A DNA stretch of 64,000 bases, from positions 7,961 through 71,960 of the forward strand of contig JAZQZB010000039.1 of the NCBI GenBank assembly GCA_045633825.1. The letters are read 5' to 3'. This DNA is from Alphaproteobacteria bacterium (GTDB taxonomy: Bacteria; Pseudomonadota; Alphaproteobacteria; RF32; CAG-239). Below, in pieces: positions 41,313-61,116 of the stretch; positions within the stretch are counted from its first letter, which is position 1; the number at the start of each line of letters is the position of its first letter. Below the pieces are notes generated by a model that saw nothing but the letters and a program-made list of their open reading frames with translations, made no database searches and was not told the origin of the DNA. Made by a program: the position numbers and the translations under genes.

Positions 41313-41389
41313 GGGCCCTTAGCTCAGTTGGTTAGAGCAGGCCGCTCATAACGGTCTGGTCGTTGGTTCGAGTCCATCAGGGCCCACCA
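41313..41389 (+). tRNA. tRNA with CAU anticodon, most likely tRNA-Ile2 (lysidine; would be machine-called tRNA-Met)
   Basis: Cloverleaf folded by hand: acceptor 7 bp GGGCCCU/AGGGCCC, D arm GCUC-AGUUGGUUA-GAGC, anticodon loop CUCAUAA, T arm GGUUCGAGUCC, CCA encoded. Near-identical over D and anticodon arms to E. coli ileX. Confidence 0.9.
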
Positions 41390-46110: not shown

Positions 46111-46953
46111 ATGAAACAACAAATTAATGGAAACGATATATTATACTACTTTCTAAAATCAATGTTGGATGTGGAAAAAGAATTAGCACATGATTTTATT
46201 AGAAAGGCAATTATTAATTTAGGAATATGGATGTCGCCTGAATATTATGAGCATTTACCAGTTTTTTCTCCTTTTGTAATAAGAGATGCTAAGTGTCGTG
46301 GAAATAAGCTTAAAAAAATACCAGAACGTTGGGGAGAACCAACTGAAAAAGGCTATTTTAAGGATGATAACTCTATTATTAAGGGATATGTTCGCTCATT
46401 TACTATACATTCTCCTTTTTCATCCTACGATGGTTGCAAAATTGGAAATGCTTATGTCGCTTCGCACGTATGGAGACAGCCTATTGGTTTTTCAACAAAT
46501 GAGGATTTGGCATCAAAAAATCCATGGTTAAATTCATTTATACCTAATTTGGTTTGGTTACCTCAACAATTATCCAAATTAAGTGATCGTGAAGGAGGGT
46601 ATGTACAAACATTTATCCAAAAAGTTTCCTACCAAATATATCATGATATTATAACTGACTCCCCTGTATTAACAAATTCATTATGGAATAAATTACCGGT
46701 GGAAGATATATCTGATACAGAAAAAATTGTTTTATCTGATATCTCATTTTTTAATTACGATGCAAAAGCGCTTGAAAGGCGAAAATCAGTAATTATCAAT
46801 GTTATTAACGCATTACAACAGAGAATATCCGGAAGAAATATTGAAAATAAAGTTGTTTCCGACAGGTATACTGATGGTTTGAATTCTTTATCATCTGCCA
46901 ATTTAATAGATCTTAAAAATGATTTGGAAGACTATATCAGGCAATTATCTTAA
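46111..46953 (+). CDS. Hypothetical protein (280 aa), candidate partner of the OLD-like ATPase
   Basis: 42-nt spacing after the ATPase gene in the same orientation. ASHVW…NPWLN…NLVWLP could be a Cys-less HNH-like (ββα-Me) motif (speculative). Confidence 0.5.
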   Translation: MKQQINGNDILYYFLKSMLDVEKELAHDFIRKAIINLGIWMSPEYYEHLPVFSPFVIRDAKCRGNKLKKIPERWGEPTEKGYFKDDNSIIKGYVRSFTIHSPFSSYDGCKIGNAYVASHVWRQPIGFSTNEDLASKNPWLNSFIPNLVWLPQQLSKLSDREGGYVQTFIQKVSYQIYHDIITDSPVLTNSLWNKLPVEDISDTEKIVLSDISFFNYDAKALERRKSVIINVINALQQRISGRNIENKVVSDRYTDGLNSLSSANLIDLKNDLEDYIRQLS

Positions 46954-48507: not shown

Positions 48508-48513
48508 GACGAA

Positions 48514-49557
48514 CTACTCCTTAATACTTGCCTCAACAGATTCGTAAGGAATTTCGGCAAAAGTTTTTAATATTGCTTCAAATATAATTTTGGCACCTTC
48601 TGCAGGAACCGCCATACCTATTTGTTTTCTTACAGACTCTTTACTTCCCTTAAATAAAAAGTCATCAGGGAAAGTCTGTAATCTAGCTCTTTCTCTATTG
48701 GTCAAAGCTCTATTTTCTTTCCAATGATATACATGTGTACCACCACCGCCTGAACCTGTAATGGTATACGCTGGTTTTTTAGGATCCAACCTTTTATAAA
48801 TTTGGCTGATTTTGGCACCCTTAACTTTTAACTGTAATTCCTTAGGCATGGTTGCTGTAAAAGCATTTTGACCAGGTTTTATATATTTCAATCGTTCAAT
48901 TACTCGAGGAGATTGTTTTGTCTGTTCATTATTGTGTGCATCTTTTGAAATTGGCGGGTTTTCAATAGCTTCCTTACATGTTTTGGTTTTATATAACTTA
49001 GGAGAAGGTACTCTAAATTTGTAAGGCAAGTCATTTCTAATACCTACAATTATCATCCTATGCCTAGCTTGAGGGATGCCGTAATCTTCAAAATGATATA
49101 GATTCGGATAAATTTTATACCCGGCATCAATCATATCCTGTTGTATACGCTTAAATGCAGACCCTTCATTAGCGGACTTAATGCCTCCAACATTTTCAGC
49201 CAAAAACCATTGGGGTTGATATTTTTTTAGTACTAGAATTCCATAGGAATATAATGGCCCAAACTTTCCCTTAAATCCTAGTTGTTCTCCAACTACAGAA
49301 AAGTCATTACAAGGAAAACCAAAAGCTAGAGCATCTATTGCACCTAACTTTCCAATATCAAGTGTATGGACATCCTCACAATACACACTTTTAGGAGCAT
49401 TTGGACATATGTTATGAGTATAAGTTTCACATGTATCCCTATCGTAATCATTTGCCCATGCATGCTCTATCTTCATGCCAGGAACATCAGCATTCATAGC
49501 ACCCCATGCCAGGCCCCCAGGCCCACAAAACAATTCTCCAAGTTTAAACTTTTTCAT
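48514..49557 (-). CDS. DNA (cytosine-5)-methyltransferase
   Basis: Motif I FCGPGG, motif IV PCNDFS, motif VI ENV, motif VIII QARHRMIIVG; start taken at MKKFKLGELF. Confidence 0.9.
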   Translation of the reverse strand: MKKFKLGELFCGPGGLAWGAMNADVPGMKIEHAWANDYDRDTCETYTHNICPNAPKSVYCEDVHTLDIGKLGAIDALAFGFPCNDFSVVGEQLGFKGKFGPLYSYGILVLKKYQPQWFLAENVGGIKSANEGSAFKRIQQDMIDAGYKIYPNLYHFEDYGIPQARHRMIIVGIRNDLPYKFRVPSPKLYKTKTCKEAIENPPISKDAHNNEQTKQSPRVIERLKYIKPGQNAFTATMPKELQLKVKGAKISQIYKRLDPKKPAYTITGSGGGGTHVYHWKENRALTNRERARLQTFPDDFLFKGSKESVRKQIGMAVPAEGAKIIFEAILKTFAEIPYESVEASIKE

Positions 49558-49799
49558 TATCAATCTCTTCAAAATCTCTCTTAGTAAGGAGTATAAAATC
49601 AAAAGGTAAAGAATCAACTAAATTATTATAATTAAAATTTTCATAATATGTCTTTTAAAGAAAACGTTGATCTTAAGGTGCATATCGGCAAGAATATATT
49701 GTTTAAGAAACTTGTATTTTAAATAAAGTGTTGCAAAAAAAATAAGGTGAAAGTATTGTTTTGTAAAATATATTAAGAATTTTCAAAAGGACTTGGACT

Positions 49800-51821
49800 A
49801 TGCATATATCAAATGTAGAAATTCATAATTTTAGAAATTTCAATGATGTTAGAATAAAATTAAAAGATGGAGTAAATGTAATATTGGGTCCAAATAATGC
49901 AGGAAAAACAAATTTATTAAAAGTTATTAATCTGCTCTCTAATAGAGAAAATTTGAAAGTTTCAGATTTTAATTTTAATAATCTTTTTGATAACGCTAAA
50001 AGCTTTTTAAGTGAAGCTCCTAAAATTGAAATAACTTATACAATAGAACATATATTTAATTATGATAAGATTGATAATGCTATAATAAAATTAAAAAACT
50101 TTATCATTTACAGTGATGATGGCAATCTTCAGCCACAATCTGATGGAAACTATAAAATTATAGGAAAATTCAAGTTATCTTATGGACTTAATGAAAAATT
50201 TATTCAGGAATATAAAAACGATATTCAAAATGTACAAAATTCAGCAAATAAAGAATATTTTAATAAATTTATAGAAATTTTAGAAAAGTATATAGAGTAC
50301 TATAACTGGACATGTTATAATGCAAATGATGAGATAGTAAATAATTTTTCAGAAATTGGAAATATATTCAGCATAGACTTTATTCCTGCAGATCGTAAGA
50401 CAGATTCTTTGCTTCCGGAGACAAGAAAATTTATAAAACAAAAAATTAAAGAGGATGAGTTGTCTCGAGGAAATATAAGAACTGACGTATCAAAAGTTTT
50501 TAATGATAGGTTACAACACATTAAAATGGATATTCAAGAGGCATTTAAAGAAGACCAGGAACGTATAGGTATAACCAATGGGCACAACATATTAGAAACA
50601 GATTTTAAATATGAAGGTGATGCGGCGGATTGTTTCCAGTTTATTTTAAAAGACGAGGATAAACAATATAATCTTCCCCTAGAGAACAATGGATTGGGAT
50701 ACAATAATTTAATACAGATTTACAATATTATTAAATTTAATATTCATGACGACTATAACATTATATTGATGGAAGAACCGGAGTCCCATTTGCATCCTGC
50801 TATGCAATATAAGCTATTCAAATATTTACAAAGTTTGGAAGAATCTAAAGAGAATAAAATAAAAAATCAAATAGTAATTACAACTCACTCGCCTAATATA
50901 TCTGCTTCTTCAAATATAGATGATATTATCAGTGTACATTACTTTCGAGATTCTACATATGGAGTTTTAATCGAAAATATCAAAGAAAAGTTTGTTTCAG
51001 AGGATACTAGTAAAAATCAAAAATTGCAACAATCTAAAGAGCATTTAATGAAGTTTTTAGATGTAACAAGAAGTGACATGCTTTTTACAGAAAAAACAAT
51101 ATTAGTAGAAGGTTTAGCTGAAAAAATGTTAATGCCATTATTCTCAATTCATGAGAAAATAGATTTGATTGATAATCATATTTCTCTTGTGGAAGTTGGG
51201 GGAATTAATTTTAAACATTTCTTACCACTATTTATCAATGGAAAAAATAAGGTGCTTTGTATTCGAGATTGCGATTTTTCTTATAAAGATAATGATGATA
51301 ATCTAAATATAAACAAGGAAGAATATAAGAAACATATATCAGAGTTGGATATAATTAATGAAGATTATAAAGGTAACGCTAATATTCGCGGAATTACGCA
51401 AATGAAAGGAGGTTCTACTTTTGAAGATGAATTGTATTTAGATAATATTTGTGAAGATGATAAAGATGAAAGTAAAGATAGTATCTGTAAAAATTTATTA
51501 AAATTAGTTTTACCTAAAAGCATCATAGAGTCTAGATTAATTAAAAAGCTTGACCTTTTGTTTTGGTATGAACACAAAGAAGAAATACCAAATGAGAAGA
51601 CTAAGAATAAAATTACAAATAAACTAGAAATATATAAAAAATTTTACGATAGCGCAGAAGACGATAAAAAATATATTGAAGATTTATTTTTTGCAAAATT
51701 GTTTTTAAGTTATGCATTTAATCAAAAAGGAAATTTAGCTCTTTCTATTTTAGTATCTCCTTTTGCTGATACTCTAAAAACTCCAAAATATATAAAGGAA
51801 GGACTAAAATGGATAAAATAA
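49800..51821 (+). CDS. gajA: Gabija GajA-like OLD-family ATPase/TOPRIM endonuclease
   Basis: Walker A GPNNAGKTNLL, Walker B LMEEPESHLHP, H-loop TTHSPN, TOPRIM ILVEGLAEKML glutamate plus RDCD; overlaps a UvrD-like helicase gene. Confidence 0.75.
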   Translation: MHISNVEIHNFRNFNDVRIKLKDGVNVILGPNNAGKTNLLKVINLLSNRENLKVSDFNFNNLFDNAKSFLSEAPKIEITYTIEHIFNYDKIDNAIIKLKNFIIYSDDGNLQPQSDGNYKIIGKFKLSYGLNEKFIQEYKNDIQNVQNSANKEYFNKFIEILEKYIEYYNWTCYNANDEIVNNFSEIGNIFSIDFIPADRKTDSLLPETRKFIKQKIKEDELSRGNIRTDVSKVFNDRLQHIKMDIQEAFKEDQERIGITNGHNILETDFKYEGDAADCFQFILKDEDKQYNLPLENNGLGYNNLIQIYNIIKFNIHDDYNIILMEEPESHLHPAMQYKLFKYLQSLEESKENKIKNQIVITTHSPNISASSNIDDIISVHYFRDSTYGVLIENIKEKFVSEDTSKNQKLQQSKEHLMKFLDVTRSDMLFTEKTILVEGLAEKMLMPLFSIHEKIDLIDNHISLVEVGGINFKHFLPLFINGKNKVLCIRDCDFSYKDNDDNLNINKEEYKKHISELDIINEDYKGNANIRGITQMKGGSTFEDELYLDNICEDDKDESKDSICKNLLKLVLPKSIIESRLIKKLDLLFWYEHKEEIPNEKTKNKITNKLEIYKKFYDSAEDDKKYIEDLFFAKLFLSYAFNQKGNLALSILVSPFADTLKTPKYIKEGLKWIK

Positions 51822-53737
51822 CATCTCAGGATGATTTGAGAATCTACGACGATAACAATAATTTTCGAATTTTTGCTGGCCCAGGTGCAGGAAAGACACA
51901 TTTAGTTATTGAAAATATTAAATTCATTATAAAAAACAGTAAAAAGTTAAAATTCAACAATCAACGAAAAATTTTGTGCATCACCTATACGAATGCGGCG
52001 GTTGATGAAATCACTAGAAGGTTAGGGCCTTTTTCAAAATTTGTTGTAGTATCAACTATTCACTCTTTTATAAATGATTATATTATATGTCCTTTTCAAA
52101 AACAGTTGAAACTACAAATTCAAAAAGAATTTAACATTAACATTCCTAAAAAAAATAAATTATCCTCTGTTCAAGAAGGTTTTACCGTATTAAGCGGACA
52201 TAAAAAAGAAGATATCTATGGTTGGATTAAAAAGAAATACCCGGAAATTGATGAGAAAATGTATTCTGATATATCAAGAATGAAAATGACTAATATTTCT
52301 ATTGATATAAGTGATATTAATAAATATCCTTTCAATGAAAACGCAAAGGCATGTATAAAACAAATAAACAACAATCAAAATATTTCTAATATTATTAAAG
52401 AGTATATTTGGTCTGTTGCTAACAAATTATCATTTGACGAAATTTTGTATTTTGGATTTGATTTATTAAAAAATTATCCTATTGTATCTTACATATTAAG
52501 AGCAGAATTTCCCTATGTCTTACTTGATGAATATCAAGACACAAATCCTATTCAAAATAAAATTATCAGCATGATGTCTGAAAAAGAGTGCTCAATTATG
52601 GTTGTCGGAGACATTGCTCAATCAATTTATTCTTTTCAAGGTGCAAAATATCAAGAATTTCAAAATTTTTGTATAGCATCTCCTCTGGACACAATAACCA
52701 AAGCAATAGAAGATAATCGTAGGTGTAATAAAAACATAATTAATTTATTAAATTTTCTAAGACAGACAGATACAGCTTTCCAACAAAAATGCATACAAAA
52801 CAAAAATACTGATAAAGTCACTTTTATTATTCAAAAAAATAAGACTATGCATAAATCCATATATGAAATTATTCCGAATAATACGCAAATATTATGTCGT
52901 AAATGGACTGAGGCGTTTAATTATATTTCAGATGTTTCTGATGAACAGAAAAAATTAATAAATTCAATTTATAATGCCTATACATATTCTGTTAATAAAG
53001 ATTTATCAAAAGAAATAGAACTAAGAAAGGATTTATGGATAGACTCCGCCTTAGATATAGCTACTTTGCAAGAAGCTTATGAAAAGAAAAATCTTCCAAA
53101 AGCATTGAATATATTTGAAAAATATCTTGATATTAAAGATTTATTCAAGAATTTTGATGCAAGTAAAATGGCAAGCTTAAAAGATATTACAAATTTATGG
53201 AAAGATATTTTTTCTAGTAATATTGAAAATTGTACCTTAAAAAATTTAATTAAGGATATAAATGTTCGTCTTGATCAATTACAGAATATAAATATATTAA
53301 AGAAATTTGAATATCCACAATCCCCTGATGACGAAGGTTATTTTGATGAAATTTATAAACATATTAACTATATAACGTATTCTTGTGCAAAAAAAATTGT
53401 ATTAGATTTGTTTTCGCCATCATCAAAGCATATGACGATACATAAAGCAAAGGGAAAAGAATTTGATAATGTTCTAGTTAACTTAGAACCTTTTTCTCGC
53501 GGCGAAGAAAAAACTATAGCCCCATCAAATGTTTTCATTTGCCCTCAAATTATTGGAGATAATTGTTATAATGAATATACAAGAATAGCATATGTTGGTT
53601 GTAGCAGAGCCAGAAATAAACTCTATATTCATTTAAAGGGAGATGAACAAACTGAAGACGCAATTAGAAAAGCTTTAAATAATTATTACAGTAATAATCC
53701 AGAGAAACAAAATTTCTTTGATTTTATTTATTTTTAA
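51809..53737 (+). CDS. gajB: Gabija GajB-like UvrD/PcrA-family helicase
   Basis: SF1 motifs: I AGPGAGKT, Ia ITYTNAA, II LDEYQDT, III GDIAQSIYSFQGA, V/VI IHKAKGKEFD, YVGCSRARNKLY. Confidence 0.75.
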   Translation: MDKITSQDDLRIYDDNNNFRIFAGPGAGKTHLVIENIKFIIKNSKKLKFNNQRKILCITYTNAAVDEITRRLGPFSKFVVVSTIHSFINDYIICPFQKQLKLQIQKEFNINIPKKNKLSSVQEGFTVLSGHKKEDIYGWIKKKYPEIDEKMYSDISRMKMTNISIDISDINKYPFNENAKACIKQINNNQNISNIIKEYIWSVANKLSFDEILYFGFDLLKNYPIVSYILRAEFPYVLLDEYQDTNPIQNKIISMMSEKECSIMVVGDIAQSIYSFQGAKYQEFQNFCIASPLDTITKAIEDNRRCNKNIINLLNFLRQTDTAFQQKCIQNKNTDKVTFIIQKNKTMHKSIYEIIPNNTQILCRKWTEAFNYISDVSDEQKKLINSIYNAYTYSVNKDLSKEIELRKDLWIDSALDIATLQEAYEKKNLPKALNIFEKYLDIKDLFKNFDASKMASLKDITNLWKDIFSSNIENCTLKNLIKDINVRLDQLQNINILKKFEYPQSPDDEGYFDEIYKHINYITYSCAKKIVLDLFSPSSKHMTIHKAKGKEFDNVLVNLEPFSRGEEKTIAPSNVFICPQIIGDNCYNEYTRIAYVGCSRARNKLYIHLKGDEQTEDAIRKALNNYYSNNPEKQNFFDFIYF

Positions 53738-53906
53738 TATTTGAAGTAATTTTAATCACTTATTATGTTTTTATGTAAAGCATTCGAAATCTTAAGTCTG
53801 TGCATTTTTTTGCACTATTTATTGCAAATTTTGCAACAACTAAATGATTTTTTAAGGTTTGCATTGTTTTTTTACATCTCATTGATTTTTCAAAATATTT
53901 AATCCA

Positions 53907-53977
53907 AATTTGGTCATTTGTGACTTTTCCATTTGGCAAATTGTGGAGTTTTCATTTGGTCATTTGTGGAATTTTTT
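53907..53977. repeat. Iteron-like array A: three tandem ~22-bp units (catttggtcatttgtggaatttt consensus)
   Basis: Seen directly; units tttggtcatttgtgactttt / ccatttggcaaattgtggagtttt / catttggtcatttgtggaatttttt. Confidence 0.7.
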
Positions 53978-54486
53978 CAAATTTCCTTGCTCAAAATATC
54001 CTGGCTTTTGGTAAGCATTTTGCGGATGTATTCATCTAAGATTGCAGAGGTTTGGTATTCATCGGTTCCGAGTTCAGCGGCAATTAAAGCCCCATATCGC
54101 ACTGGGAAACTCATAAAAAAATCTCTCAATGCTCGGCCGAGATTAAAGGAATAATTACCGGCACGTTTGCGGTCAACCATCTCGCCGGTTAGCATCTTGA
54201 GTTTGGCTTTGGCCAGCATTGCTCGGTAATAAATGTCCGCCGTTTTGGCCTGCTGAAACGTTCCCATATTGCTCATCTTGATACCACCCTGCGCCTCAAA
54301 CAGCGGGTCCGGTTTGCGTTGCTGTGCCGGATCGGTATTCATAAACCACTCTCGGTTTGCCTCATCAACATCAATTTTATTGTTTGCAGTTTTATGAATA
54401 CGCCCGGACTTTATCGCCGTCTGCACCGCATTCAGGTTCACCCCATGAATACGTGCATATTCTCGCATTGATACTAATTTTCCCAT
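53977..54486 (-). CDS. HTH DNA-binding protein resembling phage terminase small subunit (TerS-like)
   Basis: N-terminal MREYARIHGVNLNAVQTAIKSGRI HTH, as in Nu1/TerS-like proteins; GC-richer than surroundings by eye. Confidence 0.45.
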   Translation of the reverse strand: MGKLVSMREYARIHGVNLNAVQTAIKSGRIHKTANNKIDVDEANREWFMNTDPAQQRKPDPLFEAQGGIKMSNMGTFQQAKTADIYYRAMLAKAKLKMLTGEMVDRKRAGNYSFNLGRALRDFFMSFPVRYGALIAAELGTDEYQTSAILDEYIRKMLTKSQDILSKEI

Positions 54487-54508
54487 TAGATTTTCCTTTC
54501 AAAACACC

Positions 54509-54542
54509 AAGTGACCAGCCCGATTTCAAAAGTGACCAGCCC
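54509..54542. promoter_or_regulatory. Two 13-bp direct repeats aagtgaccagccc (54509-54521, 54530-54542) in the promoter region of the TerS-like gene
   Basis: Seen directly; 8-bp spacer. Confidence 0.5.
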
Positions 54543-54640
54543 CCAATTTTTGAAAATCATATAACTATTTGATATTAAAAGATTTATTAAATATACCCGA
54601 CCAGCCGGAAATTTTCTGTTCAGCTAGCGAAACGGCGCGG

Positions 54641-54683
54641 CTTGCGTCCCCGCATACGAAAAATTGCTAGGAAGGACCCGCAA
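54641..54683. repeat. Direct repeat copy 1 (gcgtccccgcatacgaaaaattgctaggaaggacccgc)
   Basis: About 85% identical to 56591-56627; the two copies flank the GHKL ATPase gene. Confidence 0.65.
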
Positions 54684-54781
54684 TCCACTAAATGTTTATA
54701 TCCTATATTCAGAATAAGAATATAATTGACGATTATTCTGCTATGAATCTTTTGTAATCTTATTGATTATTTTGTAATTTA

Positions 54782-56458
54782 TTAACTTGAAATATTCTTG
54801 TCAGATGTCCTTGGGCGAAATTCTAATTTTAATTTATCTTTTATAAAATCTTTTAATACAATGATTTCTATTTTTCGTGCTTTAGAAGAATTGTCTAAGA
54901 AATATCTTCTAATCCCATTATCCTTCGCAATTGATAATTTACGTTCTTCTTTACATAAATCCTGTACGGTATCATCATTTTTTAATTTAATATCCCAACA
55001 TACAATAGTATGCACATTGTCGAAGCAGTGATTAAACTTACCAGATAAAATATATTTAAATTCAACATAAAATATTTTACTATCCGAAAGCGCTGTGTCA
55101 TTCTTTGATTTAACAAGAACGTCTATACCTTCGTGTGTATCATAATCAACGATGCTAAAATTAAATAATTTAGGTTCTAGCATATCTAATAACATAAATA
55201 AAGAAAAAACACCATTTTCTTGTCTTGGTTCAATTAGCTCATGTCCCTTATAAACACAAGTATTTGCCTTATTTACTTGGTCAATACGATATTTATAGTC
55301 CCTTTTTTCTTTTTCCATTGTTCTATAACCATCAGCTTCTTCTGAAAGCCAATCTAAAAAACGCCAATCATCACCTTCTAAAATACTATCAAATATTTTT
55401 TTTACTTCACTTCTAATATCTTCTAAAATTTCTTGAGGTGTATTTTCCGTTGACCCTCTATTGGCTGTTAGTTTTAATCCTTGACAATTAAAGAAAGCAT
55501 GAAAACGAGTATATTCACTACCTTTGATTGCTATCCATTCATTTTTGCGTTGTATAGGGATAAAGTCTTTGCAAAGCCATAATCCGTATCTTTCTTGAAC
55601 AGTATAGGAACCCGTTGGCGCGACATAGCCGGCATGTCGTATCATTTTATTATAGTCAGTTTTTACTTTATTTCCTTCAATCATAAAGATTGCTTGATAT
55701 GATAATTCTGGTGAATTTTTTAAATGTCCTTGTTTAATAATTTTTTTACAATACCTATTAGGAGCATCTACGGTAAAGTCATCAAATAGTTTATTAATGT
55801 TGGATGTTTCTTGTGGAAAAATATGCCCAAATACTAGTTCTTCCGGCTTACAAACATTTAGTCCCTTTAATTTTAATTTAACATTTTCATATGTCTTAAT
55901 GTTAAACTCTTTTTCTGGAGAACCAAATTTTGTAAACCAATAAATATAATCTTTAAGGATTTCTTGGGTAAAACGATCGCGATGATTATTATTGTATCCT
56001 AAAACAGTAATTTTTGTTCCTTGAAAATTTGGATCAATTTCTTGAATTTCAACTCCTGGAATTTCTCTATTAGATAATTTTGTATATGGATCGTTCATCT
56101 CAGCTGAATAAGCTTTACCATCTTTGCATGTTTCAACTTTAACATTGGTACTATTAAAGTAAACTTTCGTTCCATGTCCCTTTTCTCCTATATTTTCCTG
56201 ATCTCTTTTTGTAGAGTCTCCTAAATTAAAGAAACTATGAAGTTCATCGATATTCATGCCTAGACCATCATCAGTCAGCGTAATTTGAAGTAATTGTCTT
56301 CCAGATATTTTTACCATATCAAATAAAATTTCAATATTTTGAGCATTAGCGTCAAAAGAATTACTAATTGCCTCACGAACAATTTCCAATGGGTTAGAAA
56401 AGTCATTTGCTATTTCTATAAACTCTTGTGTTGCTTCAACTTTAGGTAAATATTGCAT
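54782..56458 (-). CDS. GHKL-family (HATPase_c-like) ATPase, standalone 558-aa protein
   Basis: Bergerat fold motifs: N-box EAISNSFDANA, G1 DDGLGM, G2 GEKGHGTK. Confidence 0.7.
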   Translation of the reverse strand: MQYLPKVEATQEFIEIANDFSNPLEIVREAISNSFDANAQNIEILFDMVKISGRQLLQITLTDDGLGMNIDELHSFFNLGDSTKRDQENIGEKGHGTKVYFNSTNVKVETCKDGKAYSAEMNDPYTKLSNREIPGVEIQEIDPNFQGTKITVLGYNNNHRDRFTQEILKDYIYWFTKFGSPEKEFNIKTYENVKLKLKGLNVCKPEELVFGHIFPQETSNINKLFDDFTVDAPNRYCKKIIKQGHLKNSPELSYQAIFMIEGNKVKTDYNKMIRHAGYVAPTGSYTVQERYGLWLCKDFIPIQRKNEWIAIKGSEYTRFHAFFNCQGLKLTANRGSTENTPQEILEDIRSEVKKIFDSILEGDDWRFLDWLSEEADGYRTMEKEKRDYKYRIDQVNKANTCVYKGHELIEPRQENGVFSLFMLLDMLEPKLFNFSIVDYDTHEGIDVLVKSKNDTALSDSKIFYVEFKYILSGKFNHCFDNVHTIVCWDIKLKNDDTVQDLCKEERKLSIAKDNGIRRYFLDNSSKARKIEIIVLKDFIKDKLKLEFRPRTSDKNISS

Positions 56459-56590
56459 TTTGGGCTCCTGTGAACATTATATTGATTATAAAATTTAATA
56501 CATTGTAGGAAACAGTACGATAGAAAACAATAAAAAAATGTAATTAACAACAGTTAACATATACACTATACAATTGTTAATATAACACAA

Positions 56591-56627
56591 ATTAGTTTGC
56601 GGTCCCGCATATGAATTATCGCCAGGA
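56591..56627. repeat. Direct repeat copy 2 (gcggtcccgcatatgaattatcgccaggaaggacccgc)
   Basis: Matches 54641-54683; lies just upstream of the GHKL gene. Confidence 0.65.
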
Positions 56628-56989
56628 AGGACCCGCTGGTACCTTTACCCCCTAAAAAGGACTGGGCCTCTATACAAAACCGGCGGTTATGGTCATGTTA
56701 GTATCATACTATCCTTAATTCTAGAAACCACCGCTCATTTTGTATTGAGAATAGGGCAGATTTGTTTATTAGCTCCTTTACAAATATTCGCCGGTTTTGT
56801 GGGTATGGCACAGGGCAAAATGCCGGCTTCGTTTTTCTTGTATAAGCAAGAGCGTTTGGCCACATCTTTGGAGGCTCTGATTTCGGCAACCTTATCAAAT
56901 GTTTTTTGATCTATAATGGCCGGGTGTTGCCCGTCATAGAGTTCATTTTTGTGTTTGACTTTGCCAAGATAAATAAGTATTGGTGTTTT

Positions 56990-57105
56990 TTTATTTAATG
57001 GTTTTGCAGAAATTCATTTCATGGTTTTACAATTTATCGTTCGGTAGTTTGAGAGTTTTTCGTTCGGCAGTTTGAGGATTTTATATTCGGTAATTTAAAT
57101 CTTTT
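56990..57105. repeat. Iteron-like array B: five tandem ~22-23-bp units
   Basis: ttatttaatggttttgcagaaa / ttcatttcatggttttacaattta / tcgttcggtagtttgagagttttt / cgttcggcagtttgaggatttta / tattcggtaatttaaatcttttt; a 61-bp block is repeated in array C. Confidence 0.75.
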
Positions 57106-57360
57106 TAATTGTTCTGATTATTTTTGGTAAACTTAATTTCCCATTTATTAAAAATATATAGATTTAATCCGAGAGCTTTTATAACAAGTAATAACTTACC
57201 TGTTTGAGTGGTGTTTTTTCCGTTTTCAACATCACTGATAAATCTACGACCAGTTCCAGATATTCAAGCAAGTTCTTCTTGAGTTACTCCTTGTTGTTTA
57301 CGAATATCTCGTATTAATTTTCCTATATCTTTCATTGTTGTTAAATCTTGGCTATTCATA
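57106..57360 (-). pseudogene. Frameshifted XRE/HigA-like HTH antitoxin gene
   Basis: ATG at 57360 gives MNSQDLTTMKDIGKLIRDIRKQQGVTQEELA then TGA. The -1 frame continues ISGTGRRFISDVENGKNTTQTGKLLLVIKALGLNLYIF…, a canonical XRE HTH split by a frameshift near 57262. Confidence 0.65.
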
Positions 57361-57375
57361 ATAAACCTCTTTTTT

Positions 57376-57446
57376 TGTTACCATTCGGTATCAATAGTGT
57401 ATAAATTTGTGCAGATATCAAGTTTTTGTTACCGAACAGTATCATT
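57376..57446. promoter_or_regulatory. Paired operator-like half-sites (gttaccattcggtatca / gttaccgaacagtatca) upstream of the HTH pseudogene
   Basis: Seen directly; partially inverted cores. Confidence 0.4.
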
Positions 57447-57566
57447 ATTATTATATGGTAAAACAAAGTTTTATGTATCAAAGCAAAATAATTTTTACAA
57501 AAAAAAGAGTATCCTTGCAGGAATACTCTTTTTCAAATTTTAAGGGGTATTTTTTATGAAAGTATT

Positions 57567-57962
57567 TTATGGTAAGCCAAGTTTTTTTAATGCTTTTTCA
57601 AAAACATATTCCAATCCGGCATTTTTTATTTCATCAACATAAATTACGTTTCTTATATATTTTAAATCACATAGAATTATCTCATCAGATTTATCAATAT
57701 AAAAATTTGGTTCATAAATAATATAGCGGCCTGTAAATTTAGATAAAAAATTTAAAATGTTTTTATATTTATTAATATATTGAGCAATTAAAATTATTGC
57801 TTTTTCTCTATCATAGTTTTGAATAACTTCTGTTATATCCTTGGAAGATGTTTGTACTTTAGCTATACGGTGAGCATTTTTAAGTATTTCATTAGCAATA
57901 TTGTAAATATTGTCTGTTTTTTTATTTTCTTTATTGATATCAATCTGATAATTCTCCATCAT
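57567..57962 (-). CDS. Hypothetical protein (131 aa)
   Basis: ORF 14 nt downstream of the AAA ATPase gene on the same strand. Confidence 0.5.
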   Translation of the reverse strand: MMENYQIDINKENKKTDNIYNIANEILKNAHRIAKVQTSSKDITEVIQNYDREKAIILIAQYINKYKNILNFLSKFTGRYIIYEPNFYIDKSDEIILCDLKYIRNVIYVDEIKNAGLEYVFEKALKKLGLP

Positions 57963-57976
57963 TTATTTAATATCCC

Positions 57977-59260
57977 TTAATCCTTTAGTGAACCAATAGG
58001 AACTATTAAAACACCATCTTTACGACGATAAGCATAATTACCTACACCGATTAAAACCATTTTGAATGATGGAGCTTTCATTTTTGTTGTATCAATATTG
58101 GCTTCCAGCTTATTTAATGTTGTCGCCCCTTCTTCAATAAGTCTGTCACCGCCGAGTTTGATTTCAATTAATCCATAAGAGCCATTACGTAAATGAACAA
58201 CAGCATCACACTCTAAATCATTTCTATCTCTATAGTGATATACCTGTCCATCTAAAGCATCTGCATAAATACGTAAATCTCTGATACATAAGTTTTCAAA
58301 CATCAATCCCATTGTTTGGAGGTCATTTATTAAATCTTTTGCCCCAAGACCTAATGCAGCAGTTCCGATAGAAGGGTCAGTAAAGTAACGAGTATCAGAA
58401 GCCCTGATTGCTGTTTTGGAACGTAAATTAGGATTCCAAGCTAAAGAATCCTCAATAACAAAAATCTTCTTTAATGCTGATATATATGAGCTGATAGTTA
58501 CATTTTTGTTTGTTAAATCTTCAGTACCCTCATTAGCATAAACATCTTGTGTTATTGATGATATTTTTGCTTGCGAAGCAATAGAGCGTGCATATGAACG
58601 CAATATACGTTTAGTTTTTTCAGCATCCCTTTTAACGTTATCAATTCGTGAAATATCATCATTGACCACAGCATCAAAGTAGTTAATTGCCAATTGTAAA
58701 GCAACATCAGTATTTGTTCCAATGGATTTAGGCCATCCACCGCGACAAATTAAAAAAGCAATTTGTTCTAAGTCTAAACTATTGGTTCCTGTAACTTTCT
58801 CATTGTCAGAGAATAAATCGGCCAAAGAAACGCTACCATTACTTTCGCCTGATTCATATAAACTCATTGGACGCATTAACATGCGAGAAATTCTTCCGGT
58901 ACCACTATGTGATATTTCTGATAAATCAGCAGGAACAGCAGAACCTGTTAATACAAATTGACCAAATTCATCACGTTTATCAACCTCAAAACGTATGGCA
59001 TCCCAAAGTTTTGGAGCTAATTGCCATTCGTCAATTAATCTTGGAGTTTCACCATTTAACAGAAATGATGGATCCATATCTGCCATTTCTATGTTTTGCT
59101 TTTTTTGTGCGGGATCTTGCATAAGTAATATACTTTTAGCAATCTGGCTTGCTGTTGTTGTTTTACCGCACCATTTAGCACCTTCAATTAACACGGCACC
59201 GGAACTGGCTAATTTTTTCTGTAAAATACTATCTGCTAATCTTGTTTTATATTCTTTCAT
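57977..59260 (-). CDS. AAA+ ATPase of the AAA_14/DUF4143 family (COG1373-like)
   Basis: Walker A GAKWCGKTT near the N-terminus, Walker B-like FVLTGS, about 427 aa as for DUF4143 ATPases. Confidence 0.65.
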   Translation of the reverse strand: MKEYKTRLADSILQKKLASSGAVLIEGAKWCGKTTTASQIAKSILLMQDPAQKKQNIEMADMDPSFLLNGETPRLIDEWQLAPKLWDAIRFEVDKRDEFGQFVLTGSAVPADLSEISHSGTGRISRMLMRPMSLYESGESNGSVSLADLFSDNEKVTGTNSLDLEQIAFLICRGGWPKSIGTNTDVALQLAINYFDAVVNDDISRIDNVKRDAEKTKRILRSYARSIASQAKISSITQDVYANEGTEDLTNKNVTISSYISALKKIFVIEDSLAWNPNLRSKTAIRASDTRYFTDPSIGTAALGLGAKDLINDLQTMGLMFENLCIRDLRIYADALDGQVYHYRDRNDLECDAVVHLRNGSYGLIEIKLGGDRLIEEGATTLNKLEANIDTTKMKAPSFKMVLIGVGNYAYRRKDGVLIVPIGSLKD

Positions 59261-59304
59261 GTTGAAACTCCTTGGTAATATCTATTAATATAAACTATAT
59301 TTTA

Positions 59305-59413
59305 TTATTTTGCAAGTTTTCATTTCATGTTTTTGCAATTTTTCATTTAATGGTTTTGCAGAAATTCATTTTATGTTTTTGCAATTTATCGTTCGGCAGT
59401 TTGAGAGTTTTTT
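59305..59413. repeat. Iteron-like array C: four to five tandem ~22-bp units (catttcatgtttttgcaattttt etc.)
   Basis: Seen directly; the block 59352-59412 is about 93% identical to 56999-57060. Confidence 0.75.
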
Positions 59414-59520
59414 GTAATTAAAGTAAGATTGAGATAACGCTTGATTTTTTGAATAAAATTCACTTTAATTATAAAACACCTATCAATTATTATTAGGACT
59501 TAATTAAAACGGAGTGGACT

Positions 59521-61116
59521 ATGAGACTATTGATTATCGGCGGTGGGGCATCTGGGGCAAGTTGTGCAACCAGATTCAGAAGATTAAATGAACAAGCCCA
59601 AATTACTATATTGGAAAAGACGGATGAAGTTTCTATTGCTAATTGTGGTTTGCCTTATTATATTTCCGGTGTGATTGAAAATCGTGATGACATATTGGTT
59701 TCTAATCCTCAAAAATTTAAGTCATGGTTTAATATTGATGTAAAACTTAAAACAGAAGTAGTTCAAATCAATAAAGAAGAAAAGTATGTTATAACAAATA
59801 CGGATGAGCAAATTTCATACGATTATTTGGTAATAGCAACGGGGGCAACTCCCATTGTGCCAAACTTTGAAGGTTTAAATAAAGACAAAATATTTGTGGT
59901 GCGTTCACTTTATGATGCTGATAAAATCAAAGCCCATATTAAGAAAAATAATATTCATAAAGTAGCAGTTATCGGGGGCGGTTTTATTGGCGTAGAGGTT
60001 GCCGAAAATATGATAGAAATGGGCTTAAAAACCTCTTTGATTGAAATGAACAATCAGATTTTGGCGCCTTTGGATGTGGAAATGGTACAACTTGCTCATA
60101 AAGAAATGCTATCCAACGGAATTGATTTGATTTTATCTGATGGTGTTCAAAAGTTTGACGGCAATAAAATTGTTTTAAATTCCGGTAAAGAAGTTGAATT
60201 TGATATGTGTGTTTTGGCCATTGGTGTTAAACCTGAAATCAAATTGGCAGAAACAGCCGGACTTCAAATCAACCGAGGCATTATTGTTGATGAAACATTA
60301 AAAACGTCTGATGCATTTATTTATGCTGCCGGTGATAATGTGGAAATAAAAGATTTTGTCAGTTTGCAAAATACTTTGGTGCCATTGGCAGGACCGGCCA
60401 ACCGTCAAGGGCGTATTATTGCCGATAACATTAACGGGGTGCGTTCTACATATAAAAGCACGCAAGGATCATCTGTTGTTAAAGTGTTCGGCTTAACGGT
60501 TGCAAGTTCAGGTAATAATGAAAAGCAATTAAAACAAAAGCAAATCCCATATTTAAAAACGTATGTATATTCACGCTCTCGTGCCGGATATTATCCGGAT
60601 GCTGATGCAATTTTATTTAAGTTATTGTTTAACAAAGACGGAAAAATTTTGGGCATTCAGGGAATAGGTAAAAGTGGTGTTGAAAAAAGGGTTGATGTGG
60701 TGGCAACCATTATGAGAAATAACGGATCTATTCAAGATATGATTGATGCGGAACTTTGTTATGCACCACCGTATTCCAGTGCGAAAGATCCTGTCAATGT
60801 GTTGGGCATGAATGCCGATAATATTATAAACGGATTAGTAAAACCTGCCTTTATAGAAGATTTGGAAGAGGCTCTTGTTATAGATGTTCGCCCACCGATG
60901 ATGTATCAGCAAGGAGCTGTTCAAAATGCTATTAACATTCCGATTATGGAAATTAGACAGCGTTTGAATGAAATTCCAAAAGATAAGAAAGTGGTTTTAT
61001 CTTGTTCAACAGGATATACCAGTTATTGCGCCTCCAGAATTTTAATGCAAAACGGCTTTGATAATGTTTACTCCTTTATGGGGGGATATGATTTTTATAA
61101 AGCAGTAAAATCGTAA
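59521..61116 (+). CDS. CoA-disulfide reductase / NADH oxidase-family flavoprotein with C-terminal rhodanese domain
   Basis: FAD motif IIGGGASG, redox Cys (SIANCGLPY), second Rossmann VIGGGFIGVE, C-terminal rhodanese (…LSCSTGYTS…). Confidence 0.8.
   Translation: MRLLIIGGGASGASCATRFRRLNEQAQITILEKTDEVSIANCGLPYYISGVIENRDDILVSNPQKFKSWFNIDVKLKTEVVQINKEEKYVITNTDEQISYDYLVIATGATPIVPNFEGLNKDKIFVVRSLYDADKIKAHIKKNNIHKVAVIGGGFIGVEVAENMIEMGLKTSLIEMNNQILAPLDVEMVQLAHKEMLSNGIDLILSDGVQKFDGNKIVLNSGKEVEFDMCVLAIGVKPEIKLAETAGLQINRGIIVDETLKTSDAFIYAAGDNVEIKDFVSLQNTLVPLAGPANRQGRIIADNINGVRSTYKSTQGSSVVKVFGLTVASSGNNEKQLKQKQIPYLKTYVYSRSRAGYYPDADAILFKLLFNKDGKILGIQGIGKSGVEKRVDVVATIMRNNGSIQDMIDAELCYAPPYSSAKDPVNVLGMNADNIINGLVKPAFIEDLEEALVIDVRPPMMYQQGAVQNAINIPIMEIRQRLNEIPKDKKVVLSCSTGYTSYCASRILMQNGFDNVYSFMGGYDFYKAVKS

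What the first reader, a model, noticed from the sequence alone, without database searches (positions are those of the whole stretch)
53907..59413. Three arrays of ~22-bp iteron-like direct repeats partition the right half of the island into cassettes
Arrays at 53907-53977, 56990-57105 and 59305-59413 each contain 3-5 contiguous ~22-23-bp units with a shared consensus (roughly yCATTTcrTGGTTTTGCArAAtT / CGTTCGGyAGTTTGAGAGTTTT). Arrays B and C also share a 61-bp block at about 93% identity. The arrays bracket two modules (TerS-like with GHKL ATPase; HTH pseudogene with 131-aa protein and DUF4143 ATPase). Units are contiguous with no spacers, so this is not a CRISPR array. Possible roles are recombinase or transposase binding sites at cassette ends, replication iterons of a satellite/PICI-like element, or repressor operators. 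Recurrence at each module boundary suggests a site-specific mechanism that stacks defence cassettes.
Basis: seen in the sequence. Interest (0 to 1): 0.65.

Follow-up and report, generated by a model that had tools for sequence, protein, structure and literature searches.

The report
Iteron-like arrays of a decayed phage-satellite island
The three 23-bp repeat arrays are real. They are copies of one conserved non-coding module belonging to a family of small, tRNA-associated, phage-derived mobile elements in uncultured gut Alphaproteobacteria, and they mark the points where such elements and their defence or toxin cargo have recombined, not the sites of an integron-like cassette machine.

Summary
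Observation confirmed. There are three same-strand arrays of contiguous 23-bp units: A 53907-53975, B 56992-57106, C 59298-59412. B and C share 77 nt at 92% identity. A position weight matrix (PWM) built only from other genomes finds arrays at these three sites and nowhere else in the 64 kb.

The same array occurs in 13 species-level gut Alphaproteobacteria MAGs and 10 metagenome contigs. Its unit order is fixed: CATTTNATGNTTTTGCA x3-4 (T1), CGTTCGGYAGTTTGAG x1-2 (T2), one more T1, then ATTCGGTAA x2-3.

It sits in a mini-element encoding a Nu1-like TerS, a DnaD/O-like replication initiator, a large serine recombinase (LSR) and DUF2924. The array lies between the recombinase operon and a variable cargo slot (Fic, AbiE, HipBA, DUF4143, CoA-disulfide reductase). 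The slot ends in a terminator hairpin and a ...TCCACCACCA att remnant.

In this window the element is a fossil: only about 210 bp of the recombinase and initiator genes remain.

Homology between genomes breaks at array edges and unit boundaries, so cassette variation at the arrays is real. Three things argue against a site-specific cassette system:
- A related recombinase crosses over at tRNA 3' ends.
- The arrays are absent from the other defence-system boundaries in the island.
- Other short segments are also duplicated around inserted modules.

Most likely the arrays are protein-binding iterons (origin and/or operator). Recombination through them between related elements shuffles modules. 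Their biochemical function is inferred, not shown.

The parts
53907..53975 (+). Array A: three 23-bp units (AATTTGGTCATTTGTGACTTTTC / CATTTGGCAAATTGTGGAGTTTT / CATTTGGTCATTTGTGGAATTTT). This is a T2-variant ('A-type') unit. The array abuts the stop codon of the TerS-like gene.
   Evidence: L017 has a single A-type unit at the same place, with the same left flank 'ctcattgattttcaaaatattt'. L016-L022 have a 4-unit A/T1-like array directly upstream of DUF3489. L009 contains a hybrid unit, TATTCGGCTGTTTGTGGATTTTT, that links the A and T2 types.
56992..57106 (+). Array B: T1, T1, T2, T2 and one TATTCGGTAAT unit. This is the array normally found upstream of the DUF2924-LSR-Rep operon. Its first T1 unit and everything to its left have been deleted.
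   Evidence: Its left flank 'agataaataagtattggtgttttt' matches the conserved Lcons block of L009/L010/L012. Its right junction GAGGATTTT..AATTGTTCTGATT with the HipB-like 3' end is shared with L003 and L009.
59298..59412 (+). Array C: T1 x4 (the first degenerate) plus T2. It starts 38 nt upstream of the DUF4143 start codon and is truncated after T2, where the upstream region of the CoA-disulfide reductase gene begins.
   Evidence: L006/L028/L037/L040/L043 are 98.5% identical to window 57392-59413. They then continue with T1', ATTCGGTAA x3, the hairpin and the att remnant instead of the reductase gene. L014 shares the array-C/reductase junction.
53977..54486 (-). TerS-like gene (Nu1-type small terminase, 169 aa), a relic of the element's packaging module.
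   Evidence: phrog_57 at 3.1e-20. It is 91% identical to the L010 protein. Homologous 169-aa genes directly precede a GpA large terminase in prophages L024/L026/L028, and a 169-aa gene sits in the same position in L029.
54511..54681 (.). GTGACCAGCC x3 (54511-54520, 54532-54541, 54597-54606) and GC-rich 40-nt element copy 1 (54642-54681), upstream of TerS. A candidate cos/terminase-binding region.
   Evidence: The same arrangement occurs in L010/L031. The cos assignment is inference only.
54782..56458 (-). GHKL (HATPase_c_3) ATPase, 558 aa. Cargo inserted between two copies of the GC-rich element.
   Evidence: No L002-L013 locus holds a GHKL homolog; in L010 a lipoprotein gene occupies the TerS-Rep interval.
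56597..56636 (.). GC-rich 40-nt element, copy 2 (83% identical to copy 1).
   Evidence: Window 56594-56665 is 93% identical to L010 2684-2754.
56765..56974 (-). Remnant of the replication-initiator gene (last 14 codons, HFALCHTHKTGEYL) fused to a mid-gene fragment of the large serine recombinase gene (IYLGKVKHKNELYDGQHPAIIDQKTFDKVAEIRASKDVAKRSCLYKKNE).
   Evidence: blastn 56815-56974 is 94-95% identical to the LSR genes of L001/L010, and 56765-56824 is 93% identical to the end of the L010 Rep gene. Translations.
57105..57359 (-). HipB-like XRE/HTH_3 antitoxin pseudogene (in-frame TGA). HipA is missing.
   Evidence: L014 has the intact HipB-HipA pair between two arrays.
57567..59260 (-). 131-aa ORF and AAA_14+DUF4143 ATPase (PADLOC candidate PDC-S01). 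This module is bracketed by arrays B and C.
   Evidence: DUF4143-containing modules are also bracketed by two arrays in L009 (same module) and L044 (different partner gene).
59521..61116 (+). CoA-disulfide reductase with rhodanese domain. It behaves as cargo to the right of array C, not as fixed chromosomal flank.
   Evidence: It is 97% identical to L014, with homology ending at the stop codon. In L014 it is followed by the hairpin and att remnant. In L045 it sits in the slot after AbiE.
41313..41389 (+). tRNA-Met, the proposed left anchor of the island (not demonstrated in this window). A related LSR prophage is joined exactly at this tRNA's CCACCA end in L024.
   Evidence: In L014 the same tRNA-Met-to-reductase interval is only 3.2 kb.

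Best explanation
The three arrays are copies, complete or truncated, of one conserved non-coding module. The module belongs to a family of small phage-derived ('satellite-like') integrative elements of uncultured gut Alphaproteobacteria.

An intact element reads, in array orientation:
1. TerS(-) and a GC-rich cos-like region.
2. A DnaD/O-like replication initiator(-), the large serine recombinase(-) and DUF2924(-).
3. About 0.4-0.9 kb of non-coding DNA, repeat-rich in several loci, and an AT-rich conserved block (Lcons).
4. The array: T1 x3-4, T2 x1-2, T1', ATTCGGTAA x2-3, all in 23-bp phase.
5. A variable cargo slot.
6. A terminator hairpin and a ...TCCACCACCA att remnant.

Shown: this architecture, its recurrence in many species, and that homology between genomes breaks at array edges.

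Inferred, step 1: the window holds a composite of decayed elements. Two deletions reduced the recombinase and initiator genes to about 210 bp. Array B is the recombinase-side array, array C is the array at the head of the DUF4143 operon, and array A is the variant unit set found at the TerS end.

Inferred, step 2: arrays bracket modules because related elements or cargo circles recombined through this shared ~100-190-bp sequence. A Campbell-type single crossover or unequal crossing-over duplicates the shared segment on both sides of what is inserted. The serine recombinase itself acts at tRNA-3'-end-like sites.

Inferred, step 3, the least certain: the module works as an iteron array. That is, phased binding sites for an element-encoded DNA-binding protein, most plausibly the DnaD/O-like initiator. 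In this reading it serves as origin and/or copy-control site, and as operator for the divergent promoters at its two edges (the recombinase or DUF4143 operon leftwards, cargo rightwards).

The overall confidence of 0.5 breaks down roughly as follows: identity of the module about 0.85, recombination through shared homology about 0.6, binding by the initiator specifically about 0.35.
For: Recurrence:
- The exact 21-nt T2 pattern hits 13 Alphaproteobacteria species-representative MAGs (plus one chance hit) and 10 gut metagenome contigs. The unit order and neighbours are the same each time.
- Arrays occur only at the three sites in the window.

Element gene set:
- LSR with Resolvase/Recombinase/Zn_ribbon domains.
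- DUF2924.
- The 263-aa neighbour matches phrog_2514 'DnaD-like helicase loader' at 3e-19 and phrog_345 'replication initiation O-like' at 8e-9.
- TerS matches phrog_57.

Mobility: the LSR is 98-99% identical among four different species representatives, which indicates recent spread.

Cargo slot:
- Fic, AbiEii with its upstream partner, Fic plus helicase, HipBA, DuOB plus DUF488, or empty.
- Always bounded by the array on one side and by the hairpin plus TCCACCACCA on the other.

Fossil status of the window.

Arrays as breakpoints:
- L006/L028 are 98.5% identical up to the last base of the T2 unit of array C, then unrelated.
- L014 is 97% identical from inside array C to the reductase stop codon.
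- L003/L009/L010 join at the edges of array B.
- All right-hand junctions fall after the TTTTT that ends a unit.

Modules bracketed by two same-orientation arrays occur in the window, L009, L014 and L044. Non-array segments are duplicated around inserts too (GC element, Lcons).

Iteron-like character:
- Contiguous 23-bp direct repeats, with information content spread over about 17-20 of the 23 positions.
- An 80-85% AT stretch immediately to the left of the array.
- Arrays are present in all mini-elements that carry the DnaD-like initiator (two lineages only 37% identical, with different unit variants). They are absent from the full prophages L024-L027, L029 and L030, which use DUF6291/DUF6362 instead.
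- A sigma-70-like promoter, TTGCAA-17-TATATT, reads out of the first unit of array C into DUF4143.
Against: - No binding protein is demonstrated.
- A different repeat lies directly after the initiator gene: a 22-nt palindromic unit, three copies at 51-bp spacing. By analogy with SaPI/PICI it is an equally good origin candidate.
- Arrays are about 3 kb from the initiator gene.
- Three unit types in a fixed order suggest more than one binding protein.
- About half of the arrays seen have no initiator or recombinase gene within the stretch of DNA fetched around them (L005, L007, L014, the L006/L028 group, and the window, where only remnants survive), yet their units are well kept.
- L017's second element uses DUF6291 but still has an A-type unit.
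- Array A lies between convergent genes, so an operator role does not fit there.
- No array-bearing sequence was found in 2.9 million viral contigs. Packaging as a satellite is therefore unproven.
- The initiator family has only two lineages, so the covariation argument rests on n=2.
Confidence: 0.5

Rival explanations
1. The arrays form an operator/promoter control region bound by a regulator other than the initiator. Candidates are the small winged-helix-like DUF3489 protein, a HipB-like XRE protein, or a helper-phage activator. The array would set expression of the cargo gene to its right and of the recombinase or DUF4143 operon to its left, with no role in replication.
For: - Apart from array A and its L017 counterpart, each array whose neighbours were examined lies next to the start of at least one transcription unit.
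- In L016-L022 a 4-unit array ends about 50 nt upstream of a TATAAT, just before DUF3489.
- The first unit of array C supplies the -35 hexamer of a TTGCAA-17-TATATT promoter for DUF4143.
- The cargo slot is closed by an intrinsic-terminator-like hairpin, as in a moron expression unit.
- T2 and ATTCGGTAA units contain TTCGGTA, a half-site of the TACCG-N2-CGGTA palindromes upstream of the HipB-like gene.
Against: - Array A, and the single unit in L017, sit between convergent gene ends.
- No candidate regulator gene accompanies all arrays.
- Promoter-like matches in the region are not above shuffled expectation: 34 found vs 30.1 expected.
- Five to nine contiguous 23-bp direct repeats are more typical of iterons than of operators (my own background knowledge).
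Confidence: 0.22
2. The arrays are recombination sites of a cassette platform. Circular 'array plus module' units would be inserted into a resident array, with crossover in or next to the T2 unit, by a site-specific recombinase such as the LSR with DUF2924. This would make the system a serine-recombinase analogue of an integron that stacks defence and toxin cassettes.
For: - Modules are bracketed by same-orientation arrays in four independent contexts (window, L009, L014, L044).
- All right-hand junctions fall at unit boundaries.
- In L003 two T2 units are fused directly to a chromosomal block downstream of a tRNA-like 3' end, and the last 23 nt of that block resemble a T2/A unit.
- A recombinase gene sits next to the array in intact copies.
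Against: - A homologous LSR (62% identical) crosses over at the tRNA 3' end CCACCA, not in an array. Full prophages with LSR plus DUF2924 have no arrays.
- Units are direct repeats, without the dyad symmetry around a central dinucleotide expected of LSR att sites (sequence).
- Most cargo has an array on one side only.
- There are no arrays at the Gabija, RM or AAA_21 borders.
- Unit copy number varies freely (T1 0-4, T2 1-3), as expected from slippage or unequal crossing-over.
- Non-array segments are duplicated around inserts in the same loci.
Confidence: 0.1
3. The arrays have no sequence-specific function of their own. They would be a tandem-repeat-prone stretch of AT-rich intergenic DNA that hitch-hikes with the element and matters only as a patch of homology.
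For: - Copy number is variable, and truncated arrays are tolerated.
- Arrays persist in decayed loci without element genes.
Against: - The same three unit types, in the same order and 23-bp phase, are kept across elements whose initiators are 37% and whose recombinases are 73% identical, and next to unrelated flanks.
- Unit positions show strong, position-specific conservation (biased by the way units were collected).
Confidence: 0.08

Closest known systems
Iteron origins of plasmids, e.g. R6K gamma ori (seven contiguous 22-bp iterons), pPS10 (four contiguous 22-bp), RK2 oriV, P1 oriR/incA (from my own background knowledge)
   Same: Contiguous direct repeats of 22-23 bp in one orientation. An AT-rich stretch next to them. 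An initiator gene in the same element. A promoter at the edge of the array. Extra iteron clusters elsewhere in the replicon.
   Different: There are three unit types in a fixed order rather than one. The array is about 3 kb from the initiator gene. The initiator is DnaD/O-like, not Rep_3/pi-like. No binding or replication data exist. Many arrays lack an initiator gene in cis.
Satellite phage P4 ori and crr, and SaPI/PICI origins (from my own background knowledge)
   Same: A small integrative, helper-dependent type of element with an integrase, its own initiator, packaging functions (cos/TerS) and repeated initiator-binding sites. In P4 these sites are at two separate places in the element.
   Different: P4 and PICIs use tyrosine integrases and primase-helicase initiators. 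SaPI origins lie directly 3' of rep, and here that position is occupied by a different 22-nt repeat. Helper dependence and packaging are untested here.
[quoted passage not shown] 2022, PMC9122126, listed and not read in full)
   Same: A fixed slot in a phage-derived element, bounded by conserved sequence, holds different defence or toxin systems in different genomes.
   Different: Different host clade and element family. The slot here is headed by a repeat array and closed by a terminator hairpin and an att remnant.
Integron attI/attC cassette arrays
   Same: Variable genes separated by recurring short sequence elements, next to a recombinase gene.
   Different: The units are tandem direct repeats, not single imperfect palindromes. 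The recombinase is a large serine recombinase that appears to act at tRNA 3' ends. Genes have both orientations and their own promoters. Most modules carry an array on one side only.
Marine VEIMEs (PMC9618062) and Tycheposons (from my own background knowledge)
   Same: Small integrative elements with serine or tyrosine recombinases, replication genes and TerS homologues. Tycheposons are tRNA-targeting and accumulate in islands.
   Different: No repeat arrays are described there: 'iteron' and 'direct repeat' have 0 occurrences in PMC9618062. The hosts and gene families differ.

Membership tests
Iteron-type replication origin | Several direct repeats of about 17-23 bp in helical phase and one orientation | tested here: met
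   23-bp period, 3-9 contiguous units, all on the same strand.
Iteron-type replication origin | Cognate initiator gene in the same replicon | tested here: inconclusive
   Intact relatives carry a DnaD/O-like initiator about 3 kb away. In the window only its last 14 codons remain. Many arrays have no initiator gene within the fetched locus.
Iteron-type replication origin | Adjacent AT-rich unwinding element and/or DnaA boxes | tested here: inconclusive
   80-85% AT over about 60 bp to the left of canonical arrays, against a 65% background. TTATCCACC occurs in the att remnant, but its first positions vary between loci.
Iteron-type replication origin | Initiator binds the repeats and the region supports replication | not testable with these tools
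   Needs EMSA or footprinting and a replication assay.
Phage satellite (PICI/P4-like in the broad sense) | Integrase, own replication function and packaging-redirecting genes, no structural genes, size well below a phage genome | tested here: inconclusive
   LSR, DUF2924, DnaD-like Rep, TerS and a cos-like region lie within about 6 kb and no structural genes are visible. Related full prophages have GpA terminase, and L029 also gpW and portal genes. No complete element with both ends was recovered, so size and the absence of structural genes are not established.
Phage satellite (PICI/P4-like in the broad sense) | Induced and packaged by a helper phage | not testable with these tools
   There were 0 hits to array patterns in viral contigs. 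This is uninformative either way.
Integron-like cassette array | Each cassette ends in a recombination site with imperfect dyad symmetry, cassettes are co-oriented, and the integrase acts at those sites | tested here: not met
   Units are direct repeats. Modules have both orientations. Arrays are missing from the other module borders. The related recombinase crosses over at the tRNA end.
Large-serine-recombinase att site | An imperfect inverted repeat of about 40-50 bp around a central dinucleotide, located at the element/chromosome junction | tested here: not met
   The element/chromosome homology break for the related prophage is at CCACCA|TCATCAAAAGCC of tRNA-Met. In array-bearing elements the att-like remnant lies beyond the cargo slot.
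Tn7-like transposon ends | Multiple ~22-bp transposase sites in inverted orientation at the two ends, with tnsABC-type genes | tested here: not met
   All arrays have the same orientation. There are no transposase genes among the neighbours.
CRISPR array | Repeats separated by unique spacers of similar length | tested here: not met
   Units are contiguous.
Known structured RNA family (Rfam) | Match to a covariance model at the gathering score | tested here: not met
   Only two sub-threshold chance matches in 53600-59600, neither on an array.

The most novel reading that the evidence does not exclude
The arrays are the recombination sites of a serine-recombinase-based cassette platform. Circular 'array plus module' units carrying defence, toxin-antitoxin or metabolic genes would be captured into, and excised from, a resident array next to the LSR-DUF2924 operon. 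That would give gut Alphaproteobacteria an integron-like system built on different chemistry.
Probability: 0.1. Interest if true: 0.85.

Novelty: new variant of a known kind. Interest (0 to 1): 0.4.

Why it matters
If the inference holds, the finding defines a previously undescribed family of small phage-derived elements in uncultured gut Alphaproteobacteria. Full-text searches for DUF2924 and DUF3489 returned 3 and 1 papers, none of them about such elements.

The family combines a large serine recombinase, DUF2924, a DnaD-like initiator and a Nu1-like TerS. It has a sharply bounded accessory-gene slot that carries Fic, AbiE, HipBA, DUF4143/PDC-S01 and DuOB-DUF488 in different species.

The array is a short, highly specific DNA marker. 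A 21-nt pattern gave 23 true hits and 4 chance hits across 596 Gb of genomes plus a large metagenome set. It could be used to harvest cargo, that is, candidate defence genes, from metagenomes.

It also offers a tractable test case for how conserved non-coding modules drive module shuffling between satellites. For this particular window, the practical message is that the arrays are relics in a decayed island.

Tried and rejected
- Exact-protein look-ups of three window proteins (DUF4143, reductase, TerS) found nothing on record.
- Two array patterns gave no hit in the viral contig collection.
- Rfam found nothing relevant.
- blastn of the 5.8-kb region against GenBank phages gave only two weak partial matches to unannotated faecal phage contigs, inside the DUF4143 gene.
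- The promoter/terminator scan was not above shuffled expectation.
- Tn7-like ends were considered because Tn7R has contiguous 22-bp TnsB sites. Rejected: all arrays are co-oriented and there are no tns genes.
- CRISPR and integron attC were rejected on anatomy.
- LSR att site was rejected because a related prophage's junction lies at the tRNA-Met CCACCA end.
- I first took CoA-disulfide reductase as the chromosomal right flank. Rejected: homology to L014 stops at its stop codon, and it sits inside the cargo slot in L014 and L045.
- I first read 'CCAATGGGGTCTTATCCACCACCA' as a tRNA fragment. It is better described as the element-side arm of an att remnant that shares only the ~CCACCA core with tRNA-Lys and tRNA-Met ends. 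A DnaA-box reading (TTATCCACC) is not conserved enough.
- The test for covariation between initiator and unit sequence is limited to two initiator lineages.
- Code 4/25 recoding of the in-frame TGA in the HTH gene was rejected: orthologues have Gly there and other ORFs are intact.

Full report
**1. The observation**

The window is AT-rich (about 34% GC). Tandem Repeats Finder reports period-23 arrays at 53908-53975, 57024-57090 and 59299-59384.

Reading the sequence in 23-nt register gives:
- A: three units.
- B: five units (T1, T1, T2, T2 and a TATTCGGTAAT unit).
- C: five units (T1 x4, the first degenerate, then T2).

All units are contiguous and on the + strand. B and C share 77 nt at 92% identity.

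The T2 and A patterns occur three times each, against 0.06 and 0.13 expected. A position weight matrix (PWM) built only from arrays of other genomes picks out these three places clearly in 64 kb, on either strand. Phased three-unit scores are 50-98, against simulated maxima of at most 15.6; one marginal position (60352, 15.8) barely exceeds the null. The period is 23.

**2. Surroundings in the window**

tRNA-Met lies at 41313-41389. To its right come, in order:
- an AAA_21/AAA_15 ATPase with a partner gene;
- a FokI-like restriction enzyme with a C5 methylase;
- Gabija (GajA 49800-51821, GajB 51809-53737);
- array A;
- a TerS-like gene (phrog_57, 3e-20);
- a GHKL ATPase;
- array B;
- an HTH_3 pseudogene, a 131-aa ORF and an AAA_14+DUF4143 ATPase (PADLOC PDC-S01);
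- array C;
- a CoA-disulfide reductase.

Immediately to the left of array B is a 160-bp mid-gene fragment of a large serine recombinase (LSR) gene. It is fused to the last 14 codons of another gene.

**3. The same array elsewhere**

One scan of 185,579 species-representative genomes for TTTNTCGTTCGGYAGTTTGAG gave 14 loci. Thirteen are uncultured Alphaproteobacteria MAGs from gut samples, each with one matching place. One is a chance hit in a Latescibacteria genome. The same scan of metagenome contigs gave 13 loci: 10 true arrays, several explicitly from human gut, and 3 chance hits.

Alignment shows a fixed composite:
- T1 (CATTTNATGNTTTTGCA) x3-4;
- T2 (CGTTCGGYAGTTTGAG) x1-2;
- one more T1 (TATTTCTTGATTTTACA);
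- ATTCGGTAA x2-3.

A conserved AT-rich block (Lcons, TTTTATAAGTGATTGAATTTGCAGATAAATAA) precedes the array.

**4. What the array belongs to**

In array orientation the recurrent neighbours are:
- LSR (542 aa; Resolvase, Recombinase and Zn_ribbon domains), on the minus strand;
- DUF2924, on the minus strand;
- 0.4-0.9 kb of non-coding DNA, with long tandem repeats in several loci;
- Lcons;
- the array;
- a variable cargo;
- a hairpin followed by a T-run (AGATACCAGCTCAGACCAGATTGAGCTGTATCTTTTT);
- CCAATGGGGTCTTATCCACCACCA.

The gene after the LSR (263 aa) matches phage 'DnaD-like helicase loader' and 'replication initiation O-like' families. Beyond it lie a GC-rich 40-nt element, GTGACCAGCC repeats and the TerS gene.

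Homologous recombinases (57-65% identical) sit at the end of full prophages with DUF6291/DUF6362 and SAM synthetase (plus a ParB-methylase in most). Those that still carry the packaging region have a 169-aa TerS and a GpA large terminase, and L029 also has gpW and portal genes. The array-bearing elements are therefore reduced, phage-derived mini-elements with integration, replication and packaging-recognition genes, which is a satellite-like gene set.

Their LSR is 98-99% identical among four different species representatives, which indicates recent spread.

**5. Where the recombinase acts**

In L024-L027 the related prophage is joined to an intact tRNA-Met exactly at ...GGGCCCACCA|TCATCAAAAGCC. 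In L028 the same prophage end is joined to ...AATCCACCACCA|TCATCAAAAGCC.

In L015 the CCAATGGGGGCTTATCCACCACCA motif is followed by the genuine downstream region of a tRNA-Lys gene seen intact in L007.

The att-like sites are thus tRNA-3'-end-like sequences lying 100 bp to 4 kb to the right of the arrays, beyond the cargo. The arrays are not the att sites. For the array-bearing LSR lineage this is inferred from the conserved right-end motif, not from an empty-site comparison.

**6. The cargo slot**

Between ...ATTCGGTAATATTTAGGT and the hairpin, different loci hold:
- nothing (L006, L007, L028 and relatives; about 35 nt);
- Fic;
- AbiEii with its upstream partner;
- Fic plus an 848-aa helicase;
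- AbiE plus CoA-disulfide reductase.

HipBA, DuOB plus DUF488 and DUF4143 modules occur in or next to the array as well. This is a hotspot of the kind described for P2/P4 (PMC9122126, seen).

**7. Reading the three window arrays**

Array B keeps the right part of Lcons ('agataaataagtattggtgttttt'), so it is the recombinase-side array. One deletion, apparently through the 11-nt match AGATAAATAAG, removed the first T1 unit, the non-coding region, DUF2924 and the 5' part of the LSR gene. A second deletion fused LSR codon ~277 to the end of the initiator gene. Array B's right junction with the 3' end of a HipB-like gene is shared with L003 and L009 and reflects loss of HipA, which is intact in L014.

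Array C is the array that always precedes the DUF4143 operon (L006, L028, L037, L040, L043, L044). Those loci are 98.5% identical to the window up to the last base of the T2 unit, and then continue with T1', ATTCGGTAA x3, the hairpin and the att remnant. The window and L014 instead continue with the reductase gene, which is 97% identical, with homology ending at its stop codon.

Array A is a T2-variant. A hybrid unit in L009 links the two types. L017 has one such unit at the TerS stop codon with the same left flank, and there DUF3489 occupies the place taken by Gabija in the window. L016-L022 have a 4-unit array of A-type and T1-like units directly upstream of DUF3489.

In the close relative L014, the whole tRNA-Met-to-reductase interval is 3.2 kb. 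It holds two arrays around HipBA and no recombinase, against 18 kb here.

**8. Why arrays bracket modules**

Same-orientation arrays flank a module in the window, L009, L014 and L044. Right-hand homology breaks fall at unit boundaries.

Against a dedicated cassette mechanism:
- Unit numbers vary freely (T1 0-4, T2 1-3).
- Most cargo has an array on one side only.
- Arrays are absent from the other defence-system borders of the same island.
- Other short segments are duplicated around inserts in the same loci. The GC-rich 40-mer flanks the GHKL gene in the window, and Lcons flanks a two-gene insert in L004.

The simplest account is single-crossover or unequal recombination between related elements through whatever conserved non-coding segment they share. 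This duplicates that segment on both sides of the insert. A site-specific route cannot be excluded; I give it about 0.1.

**9. What the array does**

This part is inference.

For iterons:
- Contiguous 23-bp direct repeats, as in R6K, pPS10 and RK2 (my own background knowledge).
- An 80-85% AT stretch to the left of the array.
- An initiator gene as the last gene of the operon whose likely promoter (Lcons) abuts the array.
- Arrays are present in both lineages of mini-element that carry the DnaD-like initiator (37% identical, with different unit variants). They are absent from full prophages with other replication genes.

Against iterons:
- A 22-nt palindromic repeat in three copies directly after the initiator gene is an equally good origin candidate.
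- Many arrays lack an initiator gene in cis.
- There are three unit types.
- L017's DUF6291-type element still has an A-type unit.

The main rival is an operator role for the divergent promoters at the array edges (for TTGCAA-17-TATATT into DUF4143; for DUF3489). The two roles could also coexist, as they do in iteron plasmids.

**10. Comparison and novelty**

The arrays behave like iterons of a satellite, and the slot behaves like a P4-type defence hotspot. Membership in the integron, Tn7-end, CRISPR, LSR-att or Rfam families was tested and not met (see the membership table).

Full-text searches found no description of an LSR+DUF2924+DnaD-like+TerS element, or of these repeats.

I rate it a new variant of a known kind, of moderate interest. 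The family and its array-marked cargo slot are worth describing. In this window the arrays are relics, and their biochemical role is unproven.

Noticed in passing
window 54642-54681 and 56597-56636: A GC-rich 40-nt element (TTGCG(T/G)CCCCGCATA..GGAAGGACCCGC) occurs twice, bracketing the GHKL ATPase gene. Related elements have one copy, between TerS and the initiator gene. It is a possible cos-type site, and a second example of a short duplicated segment around an insert.
   Followed up: partly
window 54511-54606: GTGACCAGCC x3 lies just upstream of the TerS-like gene. L010 and L031 have GTGACCAGCCA in three copies at the same place. This looks like terminase-binding (cosB R-site-like) repeats.
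   Followed up: partly
window 56693-56714; L031 299-422; L045 10701-10820: A 22-nt palindrome-containing repeat, TCATGTTAGTATCATACTATCC. The window has one copy. Intact elements have three copies at 51-bp spacing directly after the initiator gene. It is an alternative origin or operator candidate.
   Followed up: partly
window 57105-57359 (-): The HipB-like HTH_3 gene carries an in-frame TGA where L009 and L014 have Gly, and HipA is missing. L003 is also disrupted. This is a decaying toxin-antitoxin remnant.
   Followed up: yes
window 49800-53737: A complete Gabija pair (GajA 6.8e-84, GajB 2.3e-99 in PADLOC). It sits where DUF3489 lies in L017, immediately to the left of array A.
   Followed up: partly
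window 44375-49617: An AAA_21/AAA_15 ATPase (best PADLOC hits AriA, NsnB, GajA, AbiLi) with an unannotated 280-aa partner, then a FokI-cleavage-domain restriction enzyme and a C5 methylase. None is bordered by arrays.
   Followed up: no
L009 1893-3563 (array orientation): The recombinase gene is a fusion: an N-terminal resolvase domain followed by an RVT_1 reverse-transcriptase domain, probably a defence RT inserted into the LSR gene.
   Followed up: partly
L001 2420-3070; L016 8752-9448 (tool coordinates): Long tandem repeats (66-260 bp, core CACGTAAGGTAAAWTCCCGRAG plus an A-rich tract) lie between DUF2924 and the array in several loci (L001, L005, L008, L010, L016). They are absent from full prophages and deleted in the window. 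Function unknown.
   Followed up: no
window 41545-41770: A block beginning TTGATGAGGCC..TTGCGGGGTTTGTGA, about 170 bp after tRNA-Met, is 87% identical to the sequence right after a tRNA-Lys gene in L007. In L003 it is fused directly to T2 units. It may be the left arm of an integrated element.
   Followed up: partly
window 41222-41271: A 23-bp x2.2 tandem repeat (AATTTTGCTTGAATAAACAATAA) lies immediately upstream of tRNA-Met. It has the same period as the arrays but a different sequence.
   Followed up: no
window 42606-42920: A 104-aa ORF clusters with a 102-aa gene of the related full prophages (L024 17001-17309). This suggests further prophage debris at the left end of the island.
   Followed up: no
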